Below the pieces are notes generated by a model, which searched no databases, had not been told where the DNA came from, and was given only the letters and a program-made list of their open reading frames with translations. Made by a program: the position numbers and the translations under genes. A stretch of DNA of 64,000 nt from Candidatus Wolfebacteria bacterium GW2011_GWB1_47_1 (GTDB lineage Bacteria > Patescibacteriota > Minisyncoccia > UBA6257 > UBA9933). Positions 153 to 11,834 of the stretch are shown in pieces; position 1 is the first letter of the stretch; each line of letters starts with the position of its first letter. Location: the NCBI GenBank assembly GCA_001029635.1, contig CP011209.1, forward strand, positions 414,866 through 478,865, written 5' to 3'.

Positions 153-1349
153 TTGCGCACACTGCTTGCTGTATCCGCTGTTTTGTTTGCCATAGTTTGC
201 TATACTAATCGTATCTATCTATCTATGTTTTTTACTCAAAAACACATCATCTCTATTTCACCGAATGCCATTGTTGTTGCGGCCGTTGATGCTGGAGCTA
301 AGAGAACGGTGACGATTAAAAAACGAATACCATTGAACAAGAGCATGTTACGAGAAACGCTCTTGGATATTAAGAAGAGCTTCAATGGGTCATTCGATGT
401 CATCTTGGGTGATGTGTTTGCGTTTGTATTTGCGGTTGCTATCCCTACCGGTACGAAGGATGAGCGGGAATTTGTACGTATCAAGGCCGCCGAGGAAGTT
501 CCTCAGGAGATCACCCCTATGACAGGGTGGGATTTTAAGGAATTTTTAAAGCATGTCGACCAGAATGAAAAGGTTGTCCAGTGTGTCGTAGTCGAAAATG
601 ATTTCTATTCCCTGTTTTCTGATGCTGTTCGAATGTCGGGAATTTCGATCGATGCCATGGAACCGATGTTATGCTCTCTTGCCCGAGCATTCGAAGAAAA
701 GCCGGAGCCACGATTGGTGCTCTACCAGGAAGAGCGAGTTATTGCATTTGTGACGTATCGGGGTTTGGTTCTCTCGAATGTGAGTTTCGACACAACTCCC
801 GATCCGCATGTCATCGCACAACTGATAGGATTTGTTAAAAAGAAATTTGATATAGTTCCCAAACATGTCTTCCTCGCCGGATCATTCCCCCTGTCGGATG
901 AGATGACCAAGGCGCTCTCAAGTTATATTGTGGAACGGGGAGATCTCGATCCGTTTATGGAAATGGCGAAGAAGAAAGACGGCAAGAATGATAAGGATAC
1001 TGCGAGTCTGAATATTATGCCGGCGGCTATGCGTATATCCGGGGATCCGAAATTGCAGCAGCACATTGTCGGCATCGCCGAACCTTCTCTGGAAACCGGC
1101 GTTATGTCTCATTATGAGCGTATTACCGATGTGCGGAGTGGTTCCTATCCACAAGGGAAGCTATTTACCATACTTATTTTCGCAAGCTCATTTTTGATTA
1201 TTTTAGCAAATGCGATGATCTGGTATCAGCGACTACAGGAGGAGCGGATCAAAGAAATTCATCCTCCGGCAGTATCGACTGGAGTATCTGAGACGACAAC
1301 AATCATACCATCGGGTATTGCCACATCCGTTACGCCAACATCCCTGTAG
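153..1349 (+). CDS. PilM-like actin-fold pilus assembly protein with a C-terminal PilN-like TM/coiled-coil segment
   Basis: A 398-aa ORF with weak similarity to the PilM middle region (..DAVRMSGISIDAMEPMLCSLARAF..). A C-terminal hydrophobic helix is followed by a coiled coil (FTILIFASSFLIILANAMIWYQRLQEERIKE). It is followed by a pilin gene. Confidence 0.4.
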   Translation: MRTLLAVSAVLFAIVCYTNRIYLSMFFTQKHIISISPNAIVVAAVDAGAKRTVTIKKRIPLNKSMLRETLLDIKKSFNGSFDVILGDVFAFVFAVAIPTGTKDEREFVRIKAAEEVPQEITPMTGWDFKEFLKHVDQNEKVVQCVVVENDFYSLFSDAVRMSGISIDAMEPMLCSLARAFEEKPEPRLVLYQEERVIAFVTYRGLVLSNVSFDTTPDPHVIAQLIGFVKKKFDIVPKHVFLAGSFPLSDEMTKALSSYIVERGDLDPFMEMAKKKDGKNDKDTASLNIMPAAMRISGDPKLQQHIVGIAEPSLETGVMSHYERITDVRSGSYPQGKLFTILIFASSFLIILANAMIWYQRLQEERIKEIHPPAVSTGVSETTTIIPSGIATSVTPTSL

Positions 1350-1473
1350 AGAGTTACATAAAAATAAATTGAACAAGCGGTAGTAACACGGTATACTATA
1401 GTATACGGAAGTCAGATCAGTCTTCGGCTGATGCGGTTGATATGGTATTATTAATTAATAAATATATATCCTC

Positions 1474-1950
1474 ATGTACATAAAAGAAAAAATAGCACAA
1501 GCAGGATTTACATTGATCGAATTATTGCTTGTCATTGTGGTCATCGTTGCATTGGCGGTTACGGTGTTTGTTTCGTTGAACCCAGCAAAGCGTTTGGCAG
1601 ATGCTCGGGATGCACGAAGAACGGCAGATGTCGATGCGATATTGACGGCTACCCACCAGTATATCGTCGATAATAAGGGTGCGCTTCCCGCGGGCGTCAG
1701 CATCACTACTGAAATGCAACTCGGCACGGCCGCTTCAGGATGCGCGGTCACGACTGCAACGTGTAATACGGCAACAAACTGTTTGGATCTTTCGACTCCG
1801 CTCGCTGCATATCTAAAAACAATCCCATTTGATCCAAAGTCCGGAACAACCACCGCAACGCTTTACTCCATTGTTGCGGATAGTAATGGAATCGTAACCG
1901 TAAAGGCGTGTGGCGCAGAAAATGTGCCGAGTATTACATCCTCGCGATAA
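1474..1950 (+). CDS. Type IV pilin / pseudopilin (class III signal peptide)
   Basis: The N-terminus KAQAGFTLIELLLVIVVIVALAVTVF is a canonical prepilin cleavage/N-methylation motif (G|FTLIE). 158 aa. Confidence 0.8.
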   Translation: MYIKEKIAQAGFTLIELLLVIVVIVALAVTVFVSLNPAKRLADARDARRTADVDAILTATHQYIVDNKGALPAGVSITTEMQLGTAASGCAVTTATCNTATNCLDLSTPLAAYLKTIPFDPKSGTTTATLYSIVADSNGIVTVKACGAENVPSITSSR

Positions 1951-2945
1951 TACCATAGTATTAGGTCCGTATCGGTATTGATCGGCTGTACCTCGGCTGG
2001 GGTGATCGCAAACGGGTCGTATAGTCGATCGCGCGTCGCAGTCGCCGCGATTTATTCTGATACCATGCGCGTGAGTGCCGCAGTCGCGGAGCATCTGAGT
2101 GCCGGGGCACGGGAGGCGCGGGCATTTCTGCAGCCGAGGCCGATCGTCAGATGATGGTTATGTTGTCTGACGCGTCGCTCACCAAGGCAATTGTAAGCGA
2201 TGTCGTTATGGGTGTTCATGAGGTGTTTGGCGCGTCGGTTAGCATGGTTGGTGGAGGTTCGTCAGATAATTTGAAATTCAAAAAGTCATCGCAGTTTTTG
2301 AATGACACCGTTTATACGGATGCGGCAGTAGGCCTGCTGCTTGTGGCTGATAGTCCTTAGTCTGTGGTATCTCGGCATGGTTGGAGCCCGACCAGTGACC
2401 CGATGGTTGTTACTAAGGCGATTAGGAAAACGGTTTATGAGCTGAATGGCCTTCCCGTTTTAAACGTTTATATGGAACACATTGCGTAGGATATCGAATC
2501 GTTCAATTTTGACCGATTTTATGATGTTGTAATGACGCACCCGTTTGGGTTGCTGTCTGTGGCGGGTAACGAATATGTTATTCGTGATGCACTAGCCGCA
2601 TCCAAAGAGGATAAATCCATATCCTTCGTTGCAGAAGTCCCGCAAGGGGCAATAATACAGTTTATGGTTGGCGGAAGGGATGCATTGCTACAGGCGGGTG
2701 CGGATGCCGCTATACTTGCGAGAGGGGAGATTCGTCATGAGTCGGCGTTGGTTTTTATTGCGGATTGTGTCTCGCGTTTGCTGGTGCTTGGCGTCGAGAC
2801 CGAGAAGGAATTGCGCAATATTGCCAAGCATGTCGGCATGGAAGTGCCAATGATCGGATTCTTCTCGTTCGGTGAAATTAGTAGCGAAACCGATCGGGCG
2901 GCATTTCATAATAAGACATGCTCGTTATATGTTATGCCGGAATAA
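1951..2945 (+). pseudogene. FIST-domain sensor protein remnant (5' truncated, frameshifted, two in-frame TAG)
   Basis: Frame 1 (1951-2151) encodes a FIST_N-like ..LIGCTSAGVIANGSY.. with no start codon, immediately after the pilin stop. Reading shifts to frame 3 at about 2150. In-frame TAG codons fall at 2358 and about 2487. The intact FIST_C-like ORF 2532..2945 is in the same frame. Confidence 0.5.
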
Positions 2946-3117: not shown

Positions 3118-4440
3118 ATGGACCAACTGACTCCTGAACTACGAAATATGTTTGCGGAACAACTATTTGGCGCGTTCGTCGAAAACGGAGAAAACGGCGT
3201 ATTTGTCGTTCGCGCGGATGCTTCCATCGCGTATGTCAATCAGGCTATGGGGAAGCTACTCGCATACGATATTGATGCATTTATCGGAAGGCCATTTTTA
3301 GATTTTTGGGCAACGGAATTCAAGGCACTTGGCGAGGAGCGTTATCAGGCTCGTATTGCAGGAGCGGAGCCGCCCAAGCGATATGACATCGAAATGATTC
3401 GCAAGGATGGTTTGCGGCTTCCGGTTGAGGTGACCGCATATCGAATACTGTTTGAGGGAGTTGCTGCTGATGCAATCGTCGTGCGTGACATTAGCGAGCA
3501 TCGTCGATTGGAGGCGGAATTGCGGAATGCCTTAAAACAATCCCGTGAACTCTCATCCGTCGTTGAAACGAGTTTCGACGCCATTGTCATTACGGATTCC
3601 GAGGGGCTTATTACGTATGTTAATAAGAGCTGGCAGGCACTTAACGGATGGGCATCGGAAGAAGTTGTTGGTAAGGTTACTCCGCGTGTTATTAAATCAG
3701 GAAGACAAAATTCTTCATTCTACCGAGTGTTTTGGCAGACGATTAAAGCCGGCTCCAGTGCTCGGCTGGATGTCACTAATCGGCGTAAAGACGGCTCGGA
3801 ATATTTCGCCGAGCTGATTGTTATGCCACTGAAGGATGACCAAGGGCTTATTACGGGATTTGCCGGATTTCAACACGATGTCACGGCGCGCCATCAGGTT
3901 GAGCAGTCGCTTTTTGAAGCGAAGGAATTTGCCGAGCACATCATCGACAGTGCGAATGCGATGGTCGTGGTACTTGATAACACAGGAGCCATCGAGGTGT
4001 TCAACAAGCGGGCTGAAGCGATAACCGGTTATACTAAGGCAGACCTGCAAGGGAAGAATTGGTTTGAGGTGCTGGCGCCGCGTGAGCGCTATCCCGATGT
4101 TTGGCATGTCTTTGAGGATTATCAGAAGCGGGGCATCGTGTTGCAACAATTTGAAAACCCTATTTTGACGAAAGATGGTCGCGAGTTGATGATTGCATGG
4201 ACAAATAGCGAATTGAATCAAGGAGGGCAGACGGTCGGGACAATTTCGTTCGGCATGGACATTACCGACCGCAAGAAGACAGAAGCTCAGCTTTTAACGA
4301 TAAACCAGGAACTGCAGCGGTTTAAAGACCTAATGGTCGGCCGTGAGCTTAAGATGATTGAATTAAAAAAAGAAGTAGAATTATTGCGCGCTGGACAATC
4401 GGGACATCTTCATGCACAAACAGATATCGCTTCGAAATAA
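3118..4440 (+). CDS. Sensor protein with three PAS/PAC domains and no output domain
   Basis: Repeated PAS blocks (..SIAYVNQAMGKLL.., ..DAIVITDSEGLITYVNKSWQALNGW.., ..VVVLDNTGAIEVFNKRAEAITGY..). It ends in the coiled-coil tail GRELKMIELKKEVELLR. The likely start is ATG 3118 (MDQLTPE); the ORF-track N-terminal extension looks spurious. Confidence 0.7.
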   Translation: MDQLTPELRNMFAEQLFGAFVENGENGVFVVRADASIAYVNQAMGKLLAYDIDAFIGRPFLDFWATEFKALGEERYQARIAGAEPPKRYDIEMIRKDGLRLPVEVTAYRILFEGVAADAIVVRDISEHRRLEAELRNALKQSRELSSVVETSFDAIVITDSEGLITYVNKSWQALNGWASEEVVGKVTPRVIKSGRQNSSFYRVFWQTIKAGSSARLDVTNRRKDGSEYFAELIVMPLKDDQGLITGFAGFQHDVTARHQVEQSLFEAKEFAEHIIDSANAMVVVLDNTGAIEVFNKRAEAITGYTKADLQGKNWFEVLAPRERYPDVWHVFEDYQKRGIVLQQFENPILTKDGRELMIAWTNSELNQGGQTVGTISFGMDITDRKKTEAQLLTINQELQRFKDLMVGRELKMIELKKEVELLRAGQSGHLHAQTDIASK

Positions 4441-6841
4441 AATAACCGCATTTACCGTCGGATCTATTCTTTTATTCGGATCCGTTGCAATTGCGATCGT
4501 GTTTTTTTATGCGCGATCAAATTATTACGCATTGCGACAAGCTGATATTCGGACGGAGGTTCTTGAGCAGGCGAGTGATATAGGGGCTTCACTTGAGCAG
4601 GCGAAGCGCATCGTAAAGCATATTGCAAGCGAGAAAGAATTAATACGGTATTTGGAAGGCGATGCCGAATCTTCAGATCGTGCGCGTATTGTTGATATGT
4701 TAAGTCATTACAACGGGGAGCGGCTGTATGATCCATTATACGTACTTGATCGATCAGGCATCGCTACTGCATCGCTCGATTCTACCTTTGTCGGGAATGA
4801 TTATAGTTTTCGCAGTTATTTTACGAACGCGATGCGTGGTGAGTCAACGGCAGAATTTTTGATTGGCGTAACGTCCGGAAAGGCGGGGTACTATTTTTCA
4901 TCCCCAGTCATTTCCAGTGATGGGGGTATTATCGGTGTCGTTGTAGGGAAGGTTTCCCGGGATATTGGAAATGAATTGATTTCCGGAAGTTTTTTAATAG
5001 AAAACGGGTCAATTATGATTACCGATACCGACGGTATCGTTTTGTACGCAAGTCGGGCGGATCAACTCTACCACTCTATCGGGGTATTGTCTGATGAAGA
5101 TCGGGATAGAATCACAGGAAACAGGCAGTTTGCTAATCTTCCCTTGACCTCGCTTGGATATAACCGCATCTTTCAGGCCATACGAACACATACAGGAACG
5201 CCTGACTTATTTGATTTTTCCAACCCTGTTACCCATGAGAATGAGGTGGTCGCTGTTGTTGCGATCCCGCAGACGGATTTGTTTCTTGTTGTTCAAGAGA
5301 GTGTGGTGTCACTTATTGCGCCGGTGCGCATTATTCTATTCGGTCTTATTATTGCTGTGCTCCTTTCCATGCTCGCCACTTCAATATTTGTGTACGTACT
5401 CGTTCGTCAGTTTTTGGCACCATTATCACGATTAAAATTTGCCGCAGAGCGCATCAGTGCGGGTGCGTTTGATTATCGCGTCGAGATCAAAACCGGTGAT
5501 GAATTAGGTAAAATGGGCGAACAGTTTAATGTAATGGCGGATCGTCTTAAAAATTCGTATGCCGGACTTGAACGAACGGTGGCGGAAAAAACGAGCGAAC
5601 TTTCTGCCAAGTTGGTTAGTATCGAGCAAAAGAATGCGGAGCTACGTGATACGCAACGCGCGGTATTGAATATTTTGGAAGATGCACGCAGTTTGGAAGC
5701 GCAGATTGCAGATGAGCGTAACCATTTGCGCGGGATTCTTGCGGCGATGGGTGAGGGACTCTTTGTGCTCGATGATCGATATCGCATCGTACTGAGCAAT
5801 CCAATTGCCGAGCGGATACTTGATATGCAGGCTGATGAAATTATCGGAAAGAGTATGAGCGATATCATTACGCTCTATAAGGGGAAAGAGGAAGTTCCGG
5901 TTGAAGGACGGCCTATGGTAAAAGTGTTTACTGAGGGCAAGATCATTGCGGCTGATCTGCGGGATGATTTCTATTGGCAGACATCCAAAGGGCGTAAATT
6001 CCCCGTTGGTTTCATCGCTGCTCCACTTACGGTTGGTGGAATACGAAATGAGGTCGTTGTGTTTCGCAACCTGGAAAAGGAGAAAAATCTTGATGAGGCA
6101 CGGACAAGTTTTATTTCCATAACATCACATCAGCTCCGCACGCCGCTTACGTCGATCAAGTGGTTCCTCGAGATGCTCATGGAAGGGAGCTACGCCGATC
6201 CGTTGACCGTAAAACAGCGCGAATTCGCCGACCTTGCGTACCAGGCGAGTGAAAAGATGGTGGGCATCATTAATCTTTTGCTGCAGATCGCTCGCGTCGA
6301 ATCAGGCCGATTGAAGGTGCTTCCGGTCCCTACGGATCTGAAACAGCTTACCGCTTCGATCATTGCATCGTTTGGGAATGCATTCCAGATGCGTAAACAG
6401 GTAATAATAGTCCAGACTGTTCCCGATCCGCTGCCGGTTATTCAGATTGATGTCGACGTCATGGGGCAGGTCATCCAAAACCTGTTGTCCAATGCGAATC
6501 GGTATGCGAACGAAAATAGCACGATTATCATTTCGATTGAAGCGGGTCAAGGAGAACAGGGTAGTGACTTCATTACGTATTCGATCGCCGATCAAGGGAT
6601 TGGTATCGGTAAGAATGCCACCAGTCGCATCTTTGAGAAATTCTATCGCGCAGAGAATGCATTACGATCTGTGCCGGAAGGGTCGGGACTTGGCCTTTCC
6701 TTGGTAAAGTCGCTTGTGGAGGGATGGGGCGGGCGTGTGTGGTTTGAATCTGAAGAAGGGAAGGGTACTACGTTCTTTTTTACGATCCCGATCGGTGGCA
6801 TGCAAGCTCGCGCCGGAGAAGTCGGTATTGCGGTTACTTAA
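4412..6841 (+). CDS. Sensor histidine kinase (TM-Cache-TM-HAMP-PAS-HisKA-HATPase_c)
   Basis: N-terminal TM helix. H-box SITSHQLRTPLTSI. HAMP region (..AERISAGAFDYRVEIKTGDELGKMGEQFNVMADRL..). HATPase G-boxes (GIGIGKNA, GSGLGLSLVKSLVE). Confidence 0.85.
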   Translation: MHKQISLRNKITAFTVGSILLFGSVAIAIVFFYARSNYYALRQADIRTEVLEQASDIGASLEQAKRIVKHIASEKELIRYLEGDAESSDRARIVDMLSHYNGERLYDPLYVLDRSGIATASLDSTFVGNDYSFRSYFTNAMRGESTAEFLIGVTSGKAGYYFSSPVISSDGGIIGVVVGKVSRDIGNELISGSFLIENGSIMITDTDGIVLYASRADQLYHSIGVLSDEDRDRITGNRQFANLPLTSLGYNRIFQAIRTHTGTPDLFDFSNPVTHENEVVAVVAIPQTDLFLVVQESVVSLIAPVRIILFGLIIAVLLSMLATSIFVYVLVRQFLAPLSRLKFAAERISAGAFDYRVEIKTGDELGKMGEQFNVMADRLKNSYAGLERTVAEKTSELSAKLVSIEQKNAELRDTQRAVLNILEDARSLEAQIADERNHLRGILAAMGEGLFVLDDRYRIVLSNPIAERILDMQADEIIGKSMSDIITLYKGKEEVPVEGRPMVKVFTEGKIIAADLRDDFYWQTSKGRKFPVGFIAAPLTVGGIRNEVVVFRNLEKEKNLDEARTSFISITSHQLRTPLTSIKWFLEMLMEGSYADPLTVKQREFADLAYQASEKMVGIINLLLQIARVESGRLKVLPVPTDLKQLTASIIASFGNAFQMRKQVIIVQTVPDPLPVIQIDVDVMGQVIQNLLSNANRYANENSTIIISIEAGQGEQGSDFITYSIADQGIGIGKNATSRIFEKFYRAENALRSVPEGSGLGLSLVKSLVEGWGGRVWFESEEGKGTTFFFTIPIGGMQARAGEVGIAVT

Positions 6842-6915
6842 AACAAAGTGACTGTAATTGAGCGTTGCGTGGATGCGAATACGTACCGCCCGTGCTATAC
6901 TAGTGTAGTAATATC

Positions 6916-7302
6916 ATGAATATAGATACTGCCATCGGCAAAAAGAAAATATTGATCGTAGAGGATGATTCGTTCATTGTAAAGGCGTACCAGATCCGTT
7001 TTGAAAACGATAATTTCGATGTATTCATAGCGACAACCGGCACTGATGCGCTTCACTATCTCGATAAAGAGCCTGTGGATGTTGTGCTCCTCGATCTGAT
7101 GCTTCCTGGGGTGAGCGGATTTGATGTGCTTATGGCGATCAGGAAGAATAATATATGGAAGAACGTTCCCGTAATTATTTTAAGCAATCTTGGACAGACC
7201 GAGGATATTCAGCGGGGGAAGGATCTTGGTGCGACGGATTATATCGTCAAAGCGAACGCGCGTATCAATGAAGTAGCAGATAAGGTTAAACGTTATTTGT
7301 GA
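6916..7302 (+). CDS. Single-domain response regulator (REC only, CheY-like)
   Basis: KKILIVEDD..VVLLDLMLPG..DYIVKA. 128 aa with no output domain. Confidence 0.85.
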   Translation: MNIDTAIGKKKILIVEDDSFIVKAYQIRFENDNFDVFIATTGTDALHYLDKEPVDVVLLDLMLPGVSGFDVLMAIRKNNIWKNVPVIILSNLGQTEDIQRGKDLGATDYIVKANARINEVADKVKRYL

Positions 7303-7315
7303 CAATCGATATTGG

Positions 7316-7358
7316 TTAACATAAACCCCCTCCGTATACGAAGGGGGTTTATGTTAAA
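7316..7358. terminator. Bidirectional terminator hairpin between convergent genes
   Basis: ttaacataaaccccctccgtatacgaagggggtttatgttaa: long perfect stem. Confidence 0.6.
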
Positions 7359-8205
7359 CCACTCTGTCTCGGTGCTCCGCCTTGTGTACTCGCAACTCTT
7401 CTTTTATTTGGATCATCTTGAGTTCGCGATCAATAGTTGCCCTTTGCCATGCTTCAAGTTCCGATACCTTTTGCTCAAGGTCGTTTTTTTGGCCGATTAG
7501 ATCTTGCTGTGATTGTTTAATCGATTGAACCATTGTGTTAAATGAGTCCGCGAGTAATACTGTTTCTTTGCTACCACTAACCGGCATATGCACTTCCATG
7601 TTTCCGTGTGTGAAATTTGCCGCGATTCGTGATAGTTCTGCAATTGGGTCGATTATCGTGCGTGAGAGGCGGAGCATGAGCGCTGAAAGCGTCAGTAACC
7701 CACCCATACTGATCGCGAAGAGAATATAGAAAGCCCGGTCGAATTGAGCCATAGTCTCTGTGAAATCGTATGTTACGCGCATCATCCCGATGAGATATGG
7801 TCCTGAGGTGATGGGCTGATCCAGTGTGAAAATATGACCTCCTTCTTTGTGACTGTCGGTCCCGCCGGCTACTTTTGAGGAAGTAGGCCCTATGGGGGAT
7901 GGTTTTGCTTTTAGGGATGTATATGCGAGTACATTCCCTGCGGGTTCGAATACGGCTAGTGATACAGAGGGTGTCTTAGAATACCGTTCATCAAGTAGTA
8001 TACGAGTCAGAAGAGGAATATCTTTTGAGAGTGTCGCCTCTTTTATGGAATCACTAATGCGTTCCGCGTCGATAAACGCACTTGTTTGAAGATTTTTTTC
8101 AAACCCATCTTTCACATAGATTGAAGCAAATACAAACGAAATACTCCCGATAATCATAAATGGGAGAATGAGAAATAGGAATATTTGTGCTTTGATCGAA
8201 TACAT
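7354..8205 (-). CDS. Membrane sensor with extracytoplasmic domain and HAMP, no recognisable output domain
   Basis: Two TM segments flank a roughly 150-aa domain. HAMP-like ..IAELSRIAANFTHGNMEVHMPVSGSKETVLLADSFNTMVQSIK... It ends in DRELKMIQIKEELRVHK. Confidence 0.55.
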   Translation of the reverse strand: MYSIKAQIFLFLILPFMIIGSISFVFASIYVKDGFEKNLQTSAFIDAERISDSIKEATLSKDIPLLTRILLDERYSKTPSVSLAVFEPAGNVLAYTSLKAKPSPIGPTSSKVAGGTDSHKEGGHIFTLDQPITSGPYLIGMMRVTYDFTETMAQFDRAFYILFAISMGGLLTLSALMLRLSRTIIDPIAELSRIAANFTHGNMEVHMPVSGSKETVLLADSFNTMVQSIKQSQQDLIGQKNDLEQKVSELEAWQRATIDRELKMIQIKEELRVHKAEHRDRVV

Positions 8206-8208
8206 GAT

Positions 8209-9438
8209 TTATAGGCGAATGCAATCCTGCGATTGCTTTTTTCCATCAAGGGGTACAAATTTCCCTCCAATGATGCGCGTTAAGTAGGCATTGCGCAATG
8301 CTTGATGATCGGTCATCGAAAAGGATGCGTGTAATTCTTTTGCGATAGGGTAATCAGTAAGGGATTCCAGGGCGCTGATGAGTGATGTTCTTGTAAGCGA
8401 CGGACCGGCACGTTTGATACCTTCTGCCAGTATTTTTGCATTGATAAATCCTTCAAGTGTTCCGAATGTAGGGTTTTTTTCGGGAAAGTATTTTGCAAGT
8501 AAATATTCGTATCCATCCGGACAATTTGATTCGGGTTGCATATTAGGCAATGGCATTGTTTGAGATATGATAATGTCTTCACTATCGATTCCCAGTTCTT
8601 GCGCGAACGCTTCCGGACCGACAAATGACATCGTTGCGAATATTGGAGTAAACCCTCTTTCGTGCGCCTGTTTTATGAACTGTGTGCTTGGGCCATAGAC
8701 CGATGCAAGAATGACCGCTTCTGGTTTTGCGGCGCTAATCACATCCAGTGCGCGTTCGATATTGATCGTATTTCGTTCATAAGAAGCGGTTGCGACTGGG
8801 CTGAGTTTTGCTTGTTTTAGCGCATTGTCTATTCCTTGCAAGACGTCAAACCCGAAGTCGTCATACTGGTAGAGCACAGCAATCTTCGTTAGCCCGCTTG
8901 TTTTTACGAGGTGATTTACGACAGCAGCGCCTTCTTCATGGTAAGACACCCGGGTGTTAAATATGTACGGTTGTAGTGGTTCTCGAAATATCTTGGCACC
9001 GCTAAACAATCCTACGAGCGGTATCTGCGCTTCGTTGATCATTGGGAGCGCCACTTTTCCGGTCGGTGTACCGACATAATTAAGCAGTGCAAATACACCA
9101 TCATCAACAATGAGTTTTTGTGTATAGTAGGCCGTTTTGGGGGGGTCATATTGGTCATCATACGAAATAAGCCGTATCTTACGGCCGTAAATACCACCCG
9201 CATCGTTGAGGGCATTGATATAGGTTTGCTCACCGATCGCATATTCTGTACCGAGAAATGCGGTTGGCCCGGTCAATGCCTTTACTGTGCCTATTCGGAT
9301 CGTGTCTCGGGTTACGCCGGTCGTATTGGCAACCGTCTCCTCGGTTTGCGGTTTATTGGTGTTACGAAATAAAAAATACGATCCCGTTGCAATAACGGCG
9401 ATTATACTAAGTGCAGATAAGATGGTCCGCTTAGTCAT
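8209..9438 (-). CDS. ABC-type substrate-binding protein, LivK/Peripla_BP_6 family (branched-chain amino acid-type)
   Basis: N-terminal signal/TM anchor. ..ALTGPTAFLGTEYAIGEQTYINALNDAGGIYGRKIRLISYDD.. is typical of the Leu/Ile/Val-binding family. Confidence 0.7.
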   Translation of the reverse strand: MTKRTILSALSIIAVIATGSYFLFRNTNKPQTEETVANTTGVTRDTIRIGTVKALTGPTAFLGTEYAIGEQTYINALNDAGGIYGRKIRLISYDDQYDPPKTAYYTQKLIVDDGVFALLNYVGTPTGKVALPMINEAQIPLVGLFSGAKIFREPLQPYIFNTRVSYHEEGAAVVNHLVKTSGLTKIAVLYQYDDFGFDVLQGIDNALKQAKLSPVATASYERNTINIERALDVISAAKPEAVILASVYGPSTQFIKQAHERGFTPIFATMSFVGPEAFAQELGIDSEDIIISQTMPLPNMQPESNCPDGYEYLLAKYFPEKNPTFGTLEGFINAKILAEGIKRAGPSLTRTSLISALESLTDYPIAKELHASFSMTDHQALRNAYLTRIIGGKFVPLDGKKQSQDCIRL

Positions 9439-10215: not shown

Positions 10216-10403
10216 ATGGTTAAGTATAGCAAATGTATTGCCTGCGCGCAGGGTTGATCTTCTTCAGAATAACGGTCGCTAGCCGTTTTACACGCCATAT
10301 AATCCCATGCAAAATTGCATAAAAAAGACGCCCGATTGACCTAACGGAAGGAGGCTAAAAAATTTGCAAAATTGATAAATTTCAGGCAATATTAGAAGCA
10401 TAT

Positions 10404-10475
10404 TGCCAGATCGTCTAATGGTAGGACAGCGGACTCTGAATCCGTCAATCTTGGTTCGAATCCAGGTCTGGCAGC
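10404..10475 (+). tRNA. tRNA-Gln (anticodon CTG)
   Basis: Cloverleaf: acceptor tgccaga/tctggca with U1-A72 and discriminator G73 (Gln identity elements). Anticodon stem cgga/tccg with loop cuCUGaa. T-loop TTCGAAT. Confidence 0.8.
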
Positions 10476-10483
10476 CCCGTAAA

Positions 10484-10625: not shown

Positions 10626-10880
10626 ATGTACTGGACTTATATTTTAGAAAATGAGGTAGATAAAAGTTGGTATATAGGTGCGACTTCTAATCTTGAAAAA
10701 CGTATCGAAGAACATCAGCGCGGACATGGTGGCGCAACTACGGGGATGAAAGTGGGTTGGAAACTTATTTATTGTGAAGGATATATAAATAAGGAAGATG
10801 CTTTTGGTAGGGAGAAATTCCTTAAAAGTGGTTCTGGTAGAAGATTTTTAAAGAAACAGTTAGCGTATTATTTGGCTTAA
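10626..10880 (+). CDS. GIY-YIG nuclease-domain small protein
   Basis: MYWTYILENEVDKSWYIGATSNLEKRIEEH..: GIY..YIG motifs with the conserved R and E. 84 aa. Confidence 0.75.
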   Translation: MYWTYILENEVDKSWYIGATSNLEKRIEEHQRGHGGATTGMKVGWKLIYCEGYINKEDAFGREKFLKSGSGRRFLKKQLAYYLA

Positions 10881-10997
10881 CTCGCGCACCTGATTCCCTT
10901 GCCCAACCCCTCTTTGGGGCGTATTATAAGTGAAATAAGAAGGGAATTAATAAGTGGGATTAAAGGCACTCTCAATCCCTTTAAGTCTTCAAGTGTG

Positions 10998-11834
10998 ATG
11001 CTTGAAATCGATATGGATATACTTAGTTCGACAGTTATTGTTATTGGAAATGGTTTTGATTTAAATCTGGGATTAAAGACGAGCTACCATGACTTTATGA
11101 AGAGTCGGTATTTTTTAGACCTACTTGTTACGGGTAATCGCCTGTGTATTTATTTAAAAAAACGCGAAAATCTTGATAATTGGGTAGATATTGAAAGTGC
11201 GCTAGTCCCTTTTTCATTGATGGAGGATTCTGTAAATTTTAAGAGTGAACTTGCTGTATTAAAGATAGCACTACGCAATTATCTAAATCATATTGATTAT
11301 GGGAATATAAATCGGAGGTCGCACGCTTATGAATTTGTTCGAGACGTGGGCATGAATGCCTCGATGATATTGAATTTTAATTATACGGATACAGTCGAAT
11401 TGATATTGCAGGAGCATGGATTGCATGCTGACTTATCTAAGGGTAAGGTGACCAAGGTTCACGGAACATTATCGAACGGTGCTGGGATAATACTTGGTGT
11501 TGAGGATAAGGCCGAGCATAGAACTGGGCATGCTTTCATTAAAAAATCTTCAGACGATTATTTCCCAGCTGTGAACGTGAGCGAATATCTTTTAGGTGCG
11601 AAATCCATCTATTTTTATGGGCATTCTTTGGGTAAGACAGATCACATGTATTTCGAAAGATTTTTTAATTCAGTAAGCGCTGCAGCTGAACCTAAAAAAG
11701 AACGCATGATTACAATGTCCTACTTAAAATCTGCTGGGAATGCTGACATGATGGAACAATTAAATAAATTAACTTCAAACAATGTGCTCATTCTTAAACA
11801 GGAAAATATTTTTATACCTCTTCCATTAGAATAA
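10998..11834 (+). CDS. AbiH-family abortive-infection protein
   Basis: The N-terminal motif VIVIGNGFDLNLGLKTSYHDF matches the AbiH signature (IGNGFDL..GL.TSY.DF). The start is ATG 10998 or 11013; the upstream part of the ORF-track call is probably untranslated. Confidence 0.7.
   Translation: MLEIDMDILSSTVIVIGNGFDLNLGLKTSYHDFMKSRYFLDLLVTGNRLCIYLKKRENLDNWVDIESALVPFSLMEDSVNFKSELAVLKIALRNYLNHIDYGNINRRSHAYEFVRDVGMNASMILNFNYTDTVELILQEHGLHADLSKGKVTKVHGTLSNGAGIILGVEDKAEHRTGHAFIKKSSDDYFPAVNVSEYLLGAKSIYFYGHSLGKTDHMYFERFFNSVSAAAEPKKERMITMSYLKSAGNADMMEQLNKLTSNNVLILKQENIFIPLPLE

What the first reader, a model, noticed from the sequence alone, without database searches (positions are those of the whole stretch)
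3118..8205. Sensory gene cluster in which two output-less sensors share a conserved C-terminal 'DRELKMIxLKxE' coiled-coil tail
The cluster runs FIST remnant, triple-PAS protein, Cache/HAMP/PAS histidine kinase, stand-alone receiver, then on the opposite strand a HAMP-only membrane sensor and a LivK-like binding protein. The triple-PAS protein ends in ..LMVGRELKMIELKKEVELLR (nt about 4333-4395). The HAMP sensor ends in ..RATIDRELKMIQIKEELRVHK (nt 7354-7434). Neither has a kinase, GGDEF or other output domain. The histidine kinase has a PAS domain and DHp but no such tail. A shared short helical tail on two different input proteins suggests a dedicated docking or heterodimerisation module. One hypothesis is that it targets the adjacent histidine kinase or the single-domain receiver, which would make a split, multi-input two-component system.
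Basis: partly seen in the sequence, partly recalled or inferred. Interest (0 to 1): 0.6.

Follow-up and report, generated by a model that had tools for sequence, protein, structure and literature searches.

The report
Docking tail linking sensors to kinase
Two sensor proteins with no output domain end in the same short helix; that helix belongs to a very large, apparently undescribed family found across bacteria and archaea, and its gene almost always sits just upstream of a histidine kinase carrying a matching 21-residue motif, so it most likely plugs separate sensors into a kinase.

Summary
RELKMI[EQ][LI]K occurs exactly twice in the six-frame translation of the window, at the C-terminal ends of the triple-PAS protein and the membrane HAMP protein. 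About 8e-7 occurrences are expected by chance.

The tail is not a DHp stump and is not specific to CPR. A tail profile matches 17,861 protein clusters from CPR, Bacteroidota, Actinomycetota, Acidobacteriota, Chloroflexota, Proteobacteria and archaea. The motif lies within about 35 residues of the stop codon in nearly all of them. It follows PAS, HAMP, REC, GAF or Cache domains and never a kinase or cyclase.

The decisive result is gene linkage:
- The next gene, often overlapping, is a histidine kinase whose N-terminus carries one to six exact 21-residue repeats, LEDTQRAVLNILEDFxxEKxR ("NILED").
- In the reverse test, 72 of 80 loci chosen by NILED repeats alone have a tail gene just upstream.
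- A receiver gene usually follows the kinase.

The window kinase carries one NILED unit between its HAMP and PAS domains, and so do its orthologues.

Best reading: the tail is a docking helix for the NILED segment, giving a split, multi-input two-component system. Binding itself is inferred, not shown. I found no curated family, solved structure or paper describing either motif.

The parts
3118..4440 (+). Gene for the triple-PAS sensor with the C-terminal tail (AKM78160). The ORF is open from 2989, and the annotated start is 3118.
   Evidence: Searches show three PAS domains and no output domain. One search gives an exact match to a 440-aa Wolfebacteria protein.
4309..4386 (+). Tail of the PAS protein: ELQRFKDLMVGRELKMIELKKEVELL.
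   Evidence: locates the motif. One search shows R, E, L, K, M and K invariant and L, F, L, G, I, E, L, E and L at least 90% conserved in 71 proteins from many phyla.
4412..6841 (+). Histidine kinase with dCache_1, HAMP, NILED motif, PAS, HisKA and HATPase_c. It overlaps the PAS-tail gene by 29 nt.
5642..5704 (+). Single 21-residue NILED unit, LRDTQRAVLNILEDARSLEAQ. This is the proposed socket for the tails.
   Evidence: One search places it at nt 5660-5683. One search gives the repeat consensus. One search shows it conserved only in true orthologues. One search places it inside an 82-residue predicted helix.
6916..7302 (+). Single-domain receiver, the presumed phosphoryl acceptor.
   Evidence: In one search the gene after the kinase has a receiver domain in 31 of 42 systems.
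7354..8205 (-). Membrane sensor with HAMP domain and C-terminal tail (AKM78163).
   Evidence: In the model, residues 213-282 form one continuous helix.
7393..7461 (-). Tail of the HAMP protein: ELEAWQRATIDRELKMIQIKEEL.
8209..9438 (-). Peripla_BP_6 (LivK-like) solute-binding protein, encoded 3 nt upstream of the HAMP-tail gene. It is the likely ligand-binding partner of that sensor.
   Evidence: The same pairing of a binding protein with a HAMP-tail sensor is seen in L006 and L044 and L161.
1978..2945 (+). FIST domain broken into three ORF pieces. This is context only, probably a decayed stand-alone sensor gene.

Best explanation
The tail has the consensus ELERFQKLTVGRELKMIELKKEIEELKK. It is a dedicated C-terminal docking helix that takes the place of an output domain on stand-alone sensor proteins.

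Its partner is the NILED unit (LEDTQRAVLNILEDFxxEKxR, exact 21-residue period). This unit lies in the long helix that leads into a histidine-kinase core. I propose that the tails of a sensor dimer pack against the NILED segment of the kinase dimer. The sensor's state would then reach the DHp and catalytic domains without a covalent link.

In this Wolfebacteria window one kinase would integrate three inputs:
- its own dCache and PAS domains;
- the cytoplasmic triple-PAS-tail protein, which is translationally coupled to it;
- the membrane HAMP-tail protein, which is probably loaded by the adjacent solute-binding protein.
The kinase then phosphorylates the single-domain receiver.

Shown: the family, its obligate C-terminal position, the reciprocal gene linkage, the operon order and the predicted helices. 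Inferred: direct tail-NILED contact, the stoichiometry and the direction of regulation.
For: Size and position of the family:
- The tail family has 17,861 clusters at 50% identity with E<=1e-3 and 3,728 with E<=1e-10.
- In all 84 ORFs of 80 genome loci the motif ends 6-29 residues before the stop. Most of the best 150 matches in the protein library show the same.
- It follows PAS domains in 59 of 71 proteins, HAMP in 5, REC in 5, GAF in 3 and dCache in 3. No kinase or cyclase domain is among the 25 families listed.

Selection acts on the protein. GRELKMIELKKE is unchanged in 132 copies that use all 4 Gly, all 6 Arg and all 6 Leu codons.

Gene linkage:
- 56 of 82 tail ORFs have a strict NILED motif within 1.8 kb downstream on the same strand. 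The median distance from the stop is 73 nt. The controls gave 1 upstream and 0 on the opposite strand.
- Gaps between the two genes are mostly -16 to +15 nt and often ATGA overlaps.
- With a looser pattern, the CPR kinases that failed the strict pattern also show one NILED-like motif.
- In the reverse test, 72 of 80 metagenome loci selected by NILED alone have a tail ORF ending less than 600 nt upstream. Four of the other eight have the first repeat within 172 nt of the contig start, leaving little or no room for an upstream gene.

The partner is a kinase:
- 61 of 63 NILED proteins have HATPase_c, 60 have HisKA and 3 have HisKA_2.
- The tail is nearly invariant while the DHp families differ. 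The common partner element is therefore NILED, not the DHp.

Orthologues: NILED is absent from the other hits of the search with the window kinase; besides its own near-identical cluster, only the three orthologues P0209-P0211 carry it. The orthologous loci keep the order tail gene, kinase, receiver.

Predicted structure and residue pattern:
- Both elements lie in long predicted helices. HAMP-tail residues 213-282 have pLDDT 81-86 over residues 231-270. Kinase residues 364-445 form one helix.
- Both motifs have a short patch that is hydrophobic on two faces and is flanked by charged residues. This reading comes from the consensus and from the sequence.
Against: - There is no direct evidence of binding.
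- About a fifth to a third of tail genes have no NILED kinase immediately downstream. The HAMP-tail gene of this window is one of them, so such tails must act on kinases encoded elsewhere or nearby.
- Many kinases carry 3-6 repeats but have only one adjacent tail gene, so the stoichiometry is unexplained.
- Both AlphaFold models rest on four-sequence alignments and have pTM 0.40.
- Linkage in an operon shows functional coupling. It does not show which surfaces touch.
Confidence: 0.6

Rival explanations
1. The tail regulates the kinase by binding another part of it (the DHp or the catalytic domain) or by binding the receiver, as an anti-kinase or connector would. NILED would then have a separate role.
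For: - The operon linkage shows coupling to the kinase-receiver pair but not the contact site.
- The tail sits where a DHp would follow the signalling helix. Examples are P0041 and P0042.
Against: - The tail is almost invariant, whereas the partner kinases use unrelated DHp families, HisKA and HisKA_2/HWE, and the receivers vary.
- The only equally invariant element that co-occurs with the tail is NILED.
Confidence: 0.15
2. The tail is only a homodimerising coiled coil that stabilises sensor dimers. Sensor and kinase communicate through other surfaces or only share an operon.
For: - The tail is predicted as a long helix continuing from HAMP AS2.
- Its weak matches to solved structures are to generic coiled coils.
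Against: - Generic coiled coils do not keep G, R, E, K and M invariant across bacterial phyla and archaea.
- Simple dimerisation does not explain the obligate C-terminal position.
- It does not explain the reciprocal linkage to NILED, seen in about 90% or more of NILED-selected loci.
Confidence: 0.12
3. The tail is mainly a site for modification or adaptation, for example methylation by a CheR-type enzyme, or it binds some other universal partner.
For: - Tails of the second subtype (..EINELLxxxGxxxKYxI) are followed by a stand-alone CheR gene in L002, L017, L019, L047 and L068, and by a CheB-CheR fusion in L079.
- A CheR-like enzyme methylates the signalling helix of the kinase RsbK in Bacillus cereus (PMC4574943, found).
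Against: - No CheR gene lies within or next to the cluster, 1-11.8 kb of the window, or in loci L161 and L162; the rest of the window was not scanned for one.
- The main subtype is followed directly by the kinase.
- In L017 the CheR system still ends in a NILED kinase.
Confidence: 0.08
4. The tail is the leftover first helix of a truncated DHp (HisKA) domain, so these are decayed kinases.
For: There is a superficial resemblance between GRELKMIEL and the H-box SHELRTPL. This is my own reading of the sequence.
Against: - hhalign of the tail profile against 53 H-box regions gave 0.9% probability.
- Pfam gave no HisKA hit at E<=10.
- There is no room for decayed kinase remnants downstream.
- Thousands of proteins stop at the same point.
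- The tail is kept under purifying selection.
Confidence: 0.02

Closest known systems
Docking domains of modular polyketide and non-ribosomal peptide synthases (own knowledge)
   Same: A short C-terminal helix on the upstream protein pairs with an N-terminal coiled coil on the protein encoded next. This joins separately translated modules in a defined order.
   Different: The biology is different (assembly-line enzymes), and the sequences are unrelated. Those docking pairs are diverse and specific to each pair. Here a single, nearly invariant pair is used across prokaryotes.
Stand-alone sensors encoded beside sensor-less kinases: H-NOX/HnoK and NosP (FIST)/NahK (PMC6769237, PMC12570481)
   Same: The sensor and the kinase are separate proteins in one operon, and the sensor controls kinase activity through protein-protein contact.
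   Different: Those sensors act through globular domains and no shared tail or socket motif is described for them. Here many kinds of sensor domain share one tail.
Signalling helix (S-helix) and coiled-coil linkers of histidine kinases (PMC1592074)
   Same: It is a helical, coiled-coil-like element placed after PAS or HAMP domains that carries the signal towards the DHp. An ERT-type S-helix precedes NILED in the window kinase and precedes the tail in some tail proteins.
   Different: The S-helix is defined by an ERT signature and always joins two domains within one polypeptide. The tail lacks ERT, is always terminal, and would act between polypeptides.
Chemoreceptor-CheW-CheA arrays (own knowledge)
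   Same: Many separate sensor proteins feed one kinase that has no sensor of its own. The CheR linkage of the second tail subtype adds a parallel with adaptation.
   Different: There is no MCP signalling domain, CheW or CheA here. The kinase is an ordinary HisKA or HisKA_2 kinase.
Split histidine kinases such as Hik36-Hik43 (PMC3591291, PMC7656254)
   Same: One kinase function is spread over two polypeptides.
   Different: As I recall, those cases split the kinase core itself (DHp and catalytic domain on separate proteins). Here the core is intact and the split lies between sensor and core.

Membership tests
HisKA / DHp domain (the tail as a DHp stump) | The sequence matches the HisKA profile and has a phospho-acceptor His in an H-box. 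| tested here: not met
   Pfam gave no hit at E<=10 on tails alone. hhalign against 53 H-box regions gave 0.9% probability. Arg or Lys stands where the His would be.
HisKA / DHp domain (the tail as a DHp stump) | A second helix and a catalytic ATPase domain follow. | tested here: not met
   The proteins stop 6-29 residues after the motif. No HATPase_c is found in the window tail proteins, and HATPase_c is not among the 25 Pfam families listed for the 71 tail proteins.
Signalling helix (S-helix) | A conserved ERT signature lies in the central heptad. | tested here: not met
   The definition comes from PMC1592074. The tail consensus has no ERT. An ERT does occur upstream of NILED in the kinase (LERTVAEK).
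Signalling helix (S-helix) | The helix lies between two signalling domains of one polypeptide. | tested here: not met
   The tail is always C-terminal.
Two-component system (kinase plus receiver) | A kinase with HisKA and HATPase_c is present, with a receiver-domain protein encoded beside it. | tested here: met
   One search gives HisKA at 3.6e-15, HATPase_c at 1.4e-25 and Response_reg at 2.8e-24. The same operon order is seen in 31 of 42 systems.
Tail / NILED sensor-kinase pair (family defined here) | The C-terminal motif G/D-RELKM-I/V-x-L/I-K lies within about 35 residues of the stop, after a sensor domain, with no output domain. | tested here: met
   Both window proteins meet this.
Tail / NILED sensor-kinase pair (family defined here) | The adjacent kinase carries a QRAxLNILED unit N-terminal to its core. 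| tested here: met
   The window kinase has the unit at nt 5642-5704, and orthologues P0209-P0211 keep it.
Tail / NILED sensor-kinase pair (family defined here) | The tail physically binds the NILED helix. | not testable with these tools
Methyl-accepting chemotaxis protein | An MCP signalling domain is present. | tested here: not met
   Neither window tail protein has an MCPsignal hit.

The most novel reading that the evidence does not exclude
Tail and NILED form a universal plug-and-socket standard for prokaryotic two-component signalling. Each 21-residue NILED unit would be one socket. A bare kinase core with one to six units could then accept several interchangeable sensor proteins, adjacent or encoded elsewhere, and add up their signals. 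In one subtype CheR-type methylation would tune the connection.
Probability: 0.35. Interest if true: 0.9.

Novelty: new variant of a known kind. Interest (0 to 1): 0.78.

Why it matters
- **Annotation.** Thousands of proteins now labelled "PAS domain S-box protein" or wrongly "sensor kinase" or "GacS" would be recognised as detachable sensors for specific kinases. Their partners could be read directly from sequence.
- **Sensor-less kinases.** The finding would explain how the many kinases that lack a sensor domain receive their signals.
- **Signal transmission.** It offers a simple system for studying how a conformational signal crosses a non-covalent helical junction.
- **Engineering.** It would give synthetic biology a natural, compact connector of about 28 plus 21 residues for wiring new sensors to kinases.
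- **Small genomes.** In a CPR bacterium of about 1 Mb, it shows one kinase integrating several inputs next to type IV pilus genes.

Tried and rejected
- **Short-profile protein search.** The search for homologous proteins with the 40-residue tail profile returned only short fragments of 25-70 aa. These helped with the consensus but not with domain architecture. The exhaustive representative search and the locus scans replaced it.
- **Existing families and structures.** Pfam, NCBIfam and PDB sequence searches found nothing covering the tail or NILED.
- **Homology tests.** hhalign found no homology between the tail and the HisKA H-box, or between the tail and NILED.
- **Plasmids.** tblastn of the tail consensus against plasmids found no match.
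- **Literature.** Searches for the motif strings and for the concept found no description of this pair.
- **RNA or DNA element.** I considered that conservation of the tail might reflect an RNA or DNA element at the gene junction. I rejected this because synonymous codons vary freely.
- **Recoding.** I considered programmed frameshifting that would fuse the two genes. I rejected this because the junction varies in spacing and frame.
- **Covariation.** I did not attempt covariation analysis between tail and NILED. The contact candidates are nearly invariant, and the variable positions follow phylogeny.
Full report
**1. What is in the window**

Pfam gives the following:
- Three pieces of a FIST domain at 1978-2945.
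- A protein with three PAS domains and nothing else, at 2989/3118-4440.
- A dCache_1-HAMP-PAS-HisKA-HATPase_c kinase at 4412-6841.
- A 128-residue receiver at 6916-7302.
- On the other strand, a membrane protein whose only Pfam domain is HAMP, at 7354-8205.
- A Peripla_BP_6 solute-binding protein at 8209-9438.

The pattern RELKMI[EQ][LI]K occurs exactly twice in all six reading frames, at 4342-4368 (+) and 7402-7428 (-). From residue frequencies 8.3e-7 occurrences are expected, and 100 shuffles gave none. The proteins are exact matches to AKM78160, AKM78161 and AKM78163 of Candidatus Wolfebacteria bacterium GW2011_GWC2_46_275. There the two tail proteins are annotated "Two-component sensor kinase" and "Sensor protein GacS" although neither has a kinase domain.

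**2. The tail defines a very large family and is always C-terminal**

- Close homologues of the HAMP protein keep the tail. An unrelated 308-residue HAMP protein also ends in MIGRELKMIELKKEIEELKKQTNT.
- A profile of tails, searched against 1.84 billion cluster representatives, found 17,861 clusters with E<=1e-3 and 3,728 with E<=1e-10.
The carriers include Patescibacteria, Bacteroidota, Actinomycetota, Acidobacteriota, Chloroflexota, Planctomycetota, Nitrospirota, Myxococcota, Proteobacteria and archaea such as Methanoperedens.
- In all 84 ORFs of the 80 loci kept, the motif ends 6-29 residues before the stop.
- Among the best 150 representatives the distance is 8-37 residues. The few exceptions look like read-through or frameshifted gene calls.
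- In 71 full-length proteins R, E, L, K, M and K are invariant, and G, I, E, L and the upstream L..F..L are at least 90% conserved.
- The twelve residues GRELKMIELKKE are identical in 132 copies that use every Gly, Arg and Leu codon. Selection therefore acts on the protein and not on an RNA or DNA element.

**3. What carries the tail**

Of 71 tail proteins, 59 have PAS domains, 5 HAMP, 5 a receiver domain, 3 GAF and 3 dCache. No HisKA, HATPase_c, GGDEF or other output family appears among the 25 families listed. The tail therefore sits where an output domain would be. In some proteins it follows an ERT-type signalling helix (P0041 and P0042), which is the position a DHp holds in an ordinary kinase.

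**4. It is not a DHp stump and matches no known family**

- Pfam finds nothing on isolated tails even at E<=10.
- NCBIfam models cover only the sensor domains.
- The best PDB sequence matches are generic coiled coils at E>=0.25.
- Profile-profile comparison with 53 H-box regions gives 0.9% probability, and the tail is not homologous to NILED either.
- The S-helix is defined by an ERT signature and an inter-domain position (PMC1592074). The tail has neither.

**5. The decisive result: linkage to a second motif**

- The gene immediately downstream of the tail gene is nearly always on the same strand. The gap is -16 to +15 nt and often an ATGA overlap.
- Its product starts with tandem repeats of the type TQRAVLNILEDFxxEKxxLE.
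- The period is exactly 21 residues. From 127 units the consensus is L-E-D-T-Q-R-A-V-L-N-I-L-E-D-F-S-E-E-K-x-R, with N10 and D14 invariant and A7 conserved in 126 of 127 units.
- 56 of 82 tail ORFs have a strict NILED motif within 1.8 kb downstream. The median distance from the stop is 73 nt. The controls gave one upstream and none on the opposite strand.
- A looser pattern also finds one NILED-like unit in the CPR kinases that failed the strict pattern.
- In the reverse test, 80 metagenome loci were chosen by NILED repeats alone. Of these, 72 have a tail ORF ending less than 600 nt upstream. Four of the remaining eight have the first repeat within 172 nt of the contig start, which leaves little or no room for an upstream gene. 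One (L110) is a fused TM-PAS-NILED kinase.
- NILED proteins are kinases: 61 of 63 have HATPase_c, 60 HisKA and 3 HisKA_2. Most are only 330-400 residues long and have no sensor domain.
- The kinases use unrelated DHp families while the tail stays constant. The constant partner element is therefore NILED.
- The gene after the kinase has a receiver domain in 31 of 42 cases, most of them products of only 114-167 residues.

The archetype is sensor-tail, then NILED-kinase, then receiver. The window follows this order.

**6. The window version**

The window kinase has a single NILED unit, LRDTQRAVLNILEDARSLEAQ, at nt 5642-5704 between HAMP and PAS. Among the proteins returned by the search with this kinase, only its own cluster and three full-length orthologues (58%, 48% and 31% identity) carry the motif. 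NILED is therefore not a general feature of kinase linkers.

The orthologous loci keep the order PAS-tail gene, overlapping kinase, receiver. One of them also keeps the convergent pair of solute-binding protein and HAMP-tail sensor. Other CPR loci repeat the pairing of a binding protein with a HAMP-tail sensor (L006, L044). They also repeat the order of tail gene followed by a membrane kinase with one NILED-like unit (L001, L004, L009, L050).

**7. Structure predictions**

With shallow four-sequence alignments (pTM 0.40), AlphaFold2 gives two results:
- HAMP-tail residues 213-282 form one continuous helix, with pLDDT 81-86 over residues 231-270.
- Kinase residues 364-445 form one 82-residue helix that runs from HAMP AS2 through the ERT segment and NILED into the PAS domain.

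I read the 21-residue unit in heptad register from the consensus. L1, V8 and F15 fall at position a, and I11 at position d. A7, L9 and L12 add hydrophobic residues at positions g, b and e of the central heptad. In a two-stranded coiled coil these would be exposed, and they are the positions where further helices pack in four-helix bundles. The tail likewise has two offset hydrophobic stripes (V, L, I and M, L, I, L) around RELKMIEL. This fits a short 2+2 helical bundle, but it is inference only.

**8. Most likely mechanism**

The tail is a docking helix and NILED is its socket. Together they join a separately encoded sensor to a kinase core without a covalent link, and translational coupling helps the two assemble.

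In Wolfebacteria the kinase would integrate three inputs: its own dCache and PAS domains, the triple-PAS-tail protein, and the HAMP-tail protein fed by the solute-binding protein. It would signal to the single-domain receiver. My confidence is about 0.85 that the tail is a dedicated module coupled to NILED kinases. It is about 0.6 for the full statement that includes direct tail-NILED contact.

The rival explanations are:
- binding to another part of the kinase or to the receiver;
- plain dimerisation;
- a modification site;
- a DHp stump, which is effectively refuted.

**9. Comparison with known systems, and novelty**

In function the pair resembles several known arrangements: the docking domains of modular synthases, stand-alone sensors such as H-NOX or NosP beside sensor-less kinases, chemoreceptor-CheA arrays, and, in cis, the signalling helix. 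It belongs to none of these families.

Searches of the held literature for the motif strings and for the concept found no description. Pfam, NCBIfam and the PDB contain no model or structure of either motif. That literature library is incomplete, so a prior description cannot be excluded.

I rate this a new variant of a known kind: a two-component system with a previously undescribed, pan-prokaryotic connector between sensor and kinase.

**10. Limits**

- No binding data and no multimer model exist.
- Gene calls in the fetched loci are my own simple ORF calls.
- The locus sets are the best-scoring 80 of more than 480 in each scan, so the percentages describe those samples.
- The stoichiometry between repeats and tails is unknown.

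Noticed in passing
L002, L017, L019, L047, L068, L079 (for example L017:1241-2089 and L017:2212-4020): A second tail subtype ends in ..EINELLxxxGxxxKYxI and is seen mostly in Bacteroidota. It is followed by a stand-alone CheR methyltransferase or a CheB-CheR-PAS fusion. In L017 a NILED kinase comes next. This suggests methylation-based tuning of the connection, as RsbM does for the signalling helix of RsbK (PMC4574943).
   Followed up: partly
window 153-1950; L161 and L162: The sensor-kinase-receiver cluster lies next to a type IV pilin gene in the window (N_methyl pilin at 1474-1950). In the orthologous loci it lies among PilM/N, T2SSE, T2SSF and pilin genes. The receiver may therefore control pilus function in these CPR bacteria.
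   Followed up: partly
window 1978-2945 (+): A FIST domain (the sensor fold of NosP) is split over three ORFs at 1978-2154, 2151-2360 and 2532-2945. It is probably a decayed stand-alone sensor gene upstream of the operon. Assembly frameshifts are the alternative.
   Followed up: partly
window 3118-4440 and 7354-8205: The public annotation calls the PAS-tail protein "Two-component sensor kinase" and the HAMP-tail protein "Sensor protein GacS". Neither has a kinase domain, so the annotations are misleading.
   Followed up: yes
alignment A4 (consensus): Many tail proteins from non-CPR phyla share an unusually conserved last PAS domain (YARSLIEASLDPLVTIS.EGKITDVNEA...VLGVFA.ARDVT). Pfam families that seem out of place (Bcl-2_3, ATPaseInh_sub_z, DUF2508, SymE_toxin, 3H) each hit several tail proteins (4-12 of 71). 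None of them matched isolated tails, and which part of the proteins they match was not determined.
   Followed up: no
window 10403-10477, 10626-10880, 10899-11834: A tRNA-Gln gene is followed by a small GIY-YIG nuclease gene and an AbiH-like abortive-infection gene. GC content drops to 0.39-0.40 over 10-14 kb, so this may be an integrated mobile or defence islet.
   Followed up: no
L019:3137-9412: Three tail-bearing sensor genes lie in tandem before a CheR gene. One of them encodes a 1090-residue Reg_prop/Y_Y_Y/PAS protein. This is an example of several sensors that may share one downstream kinase.
   Followed up: no
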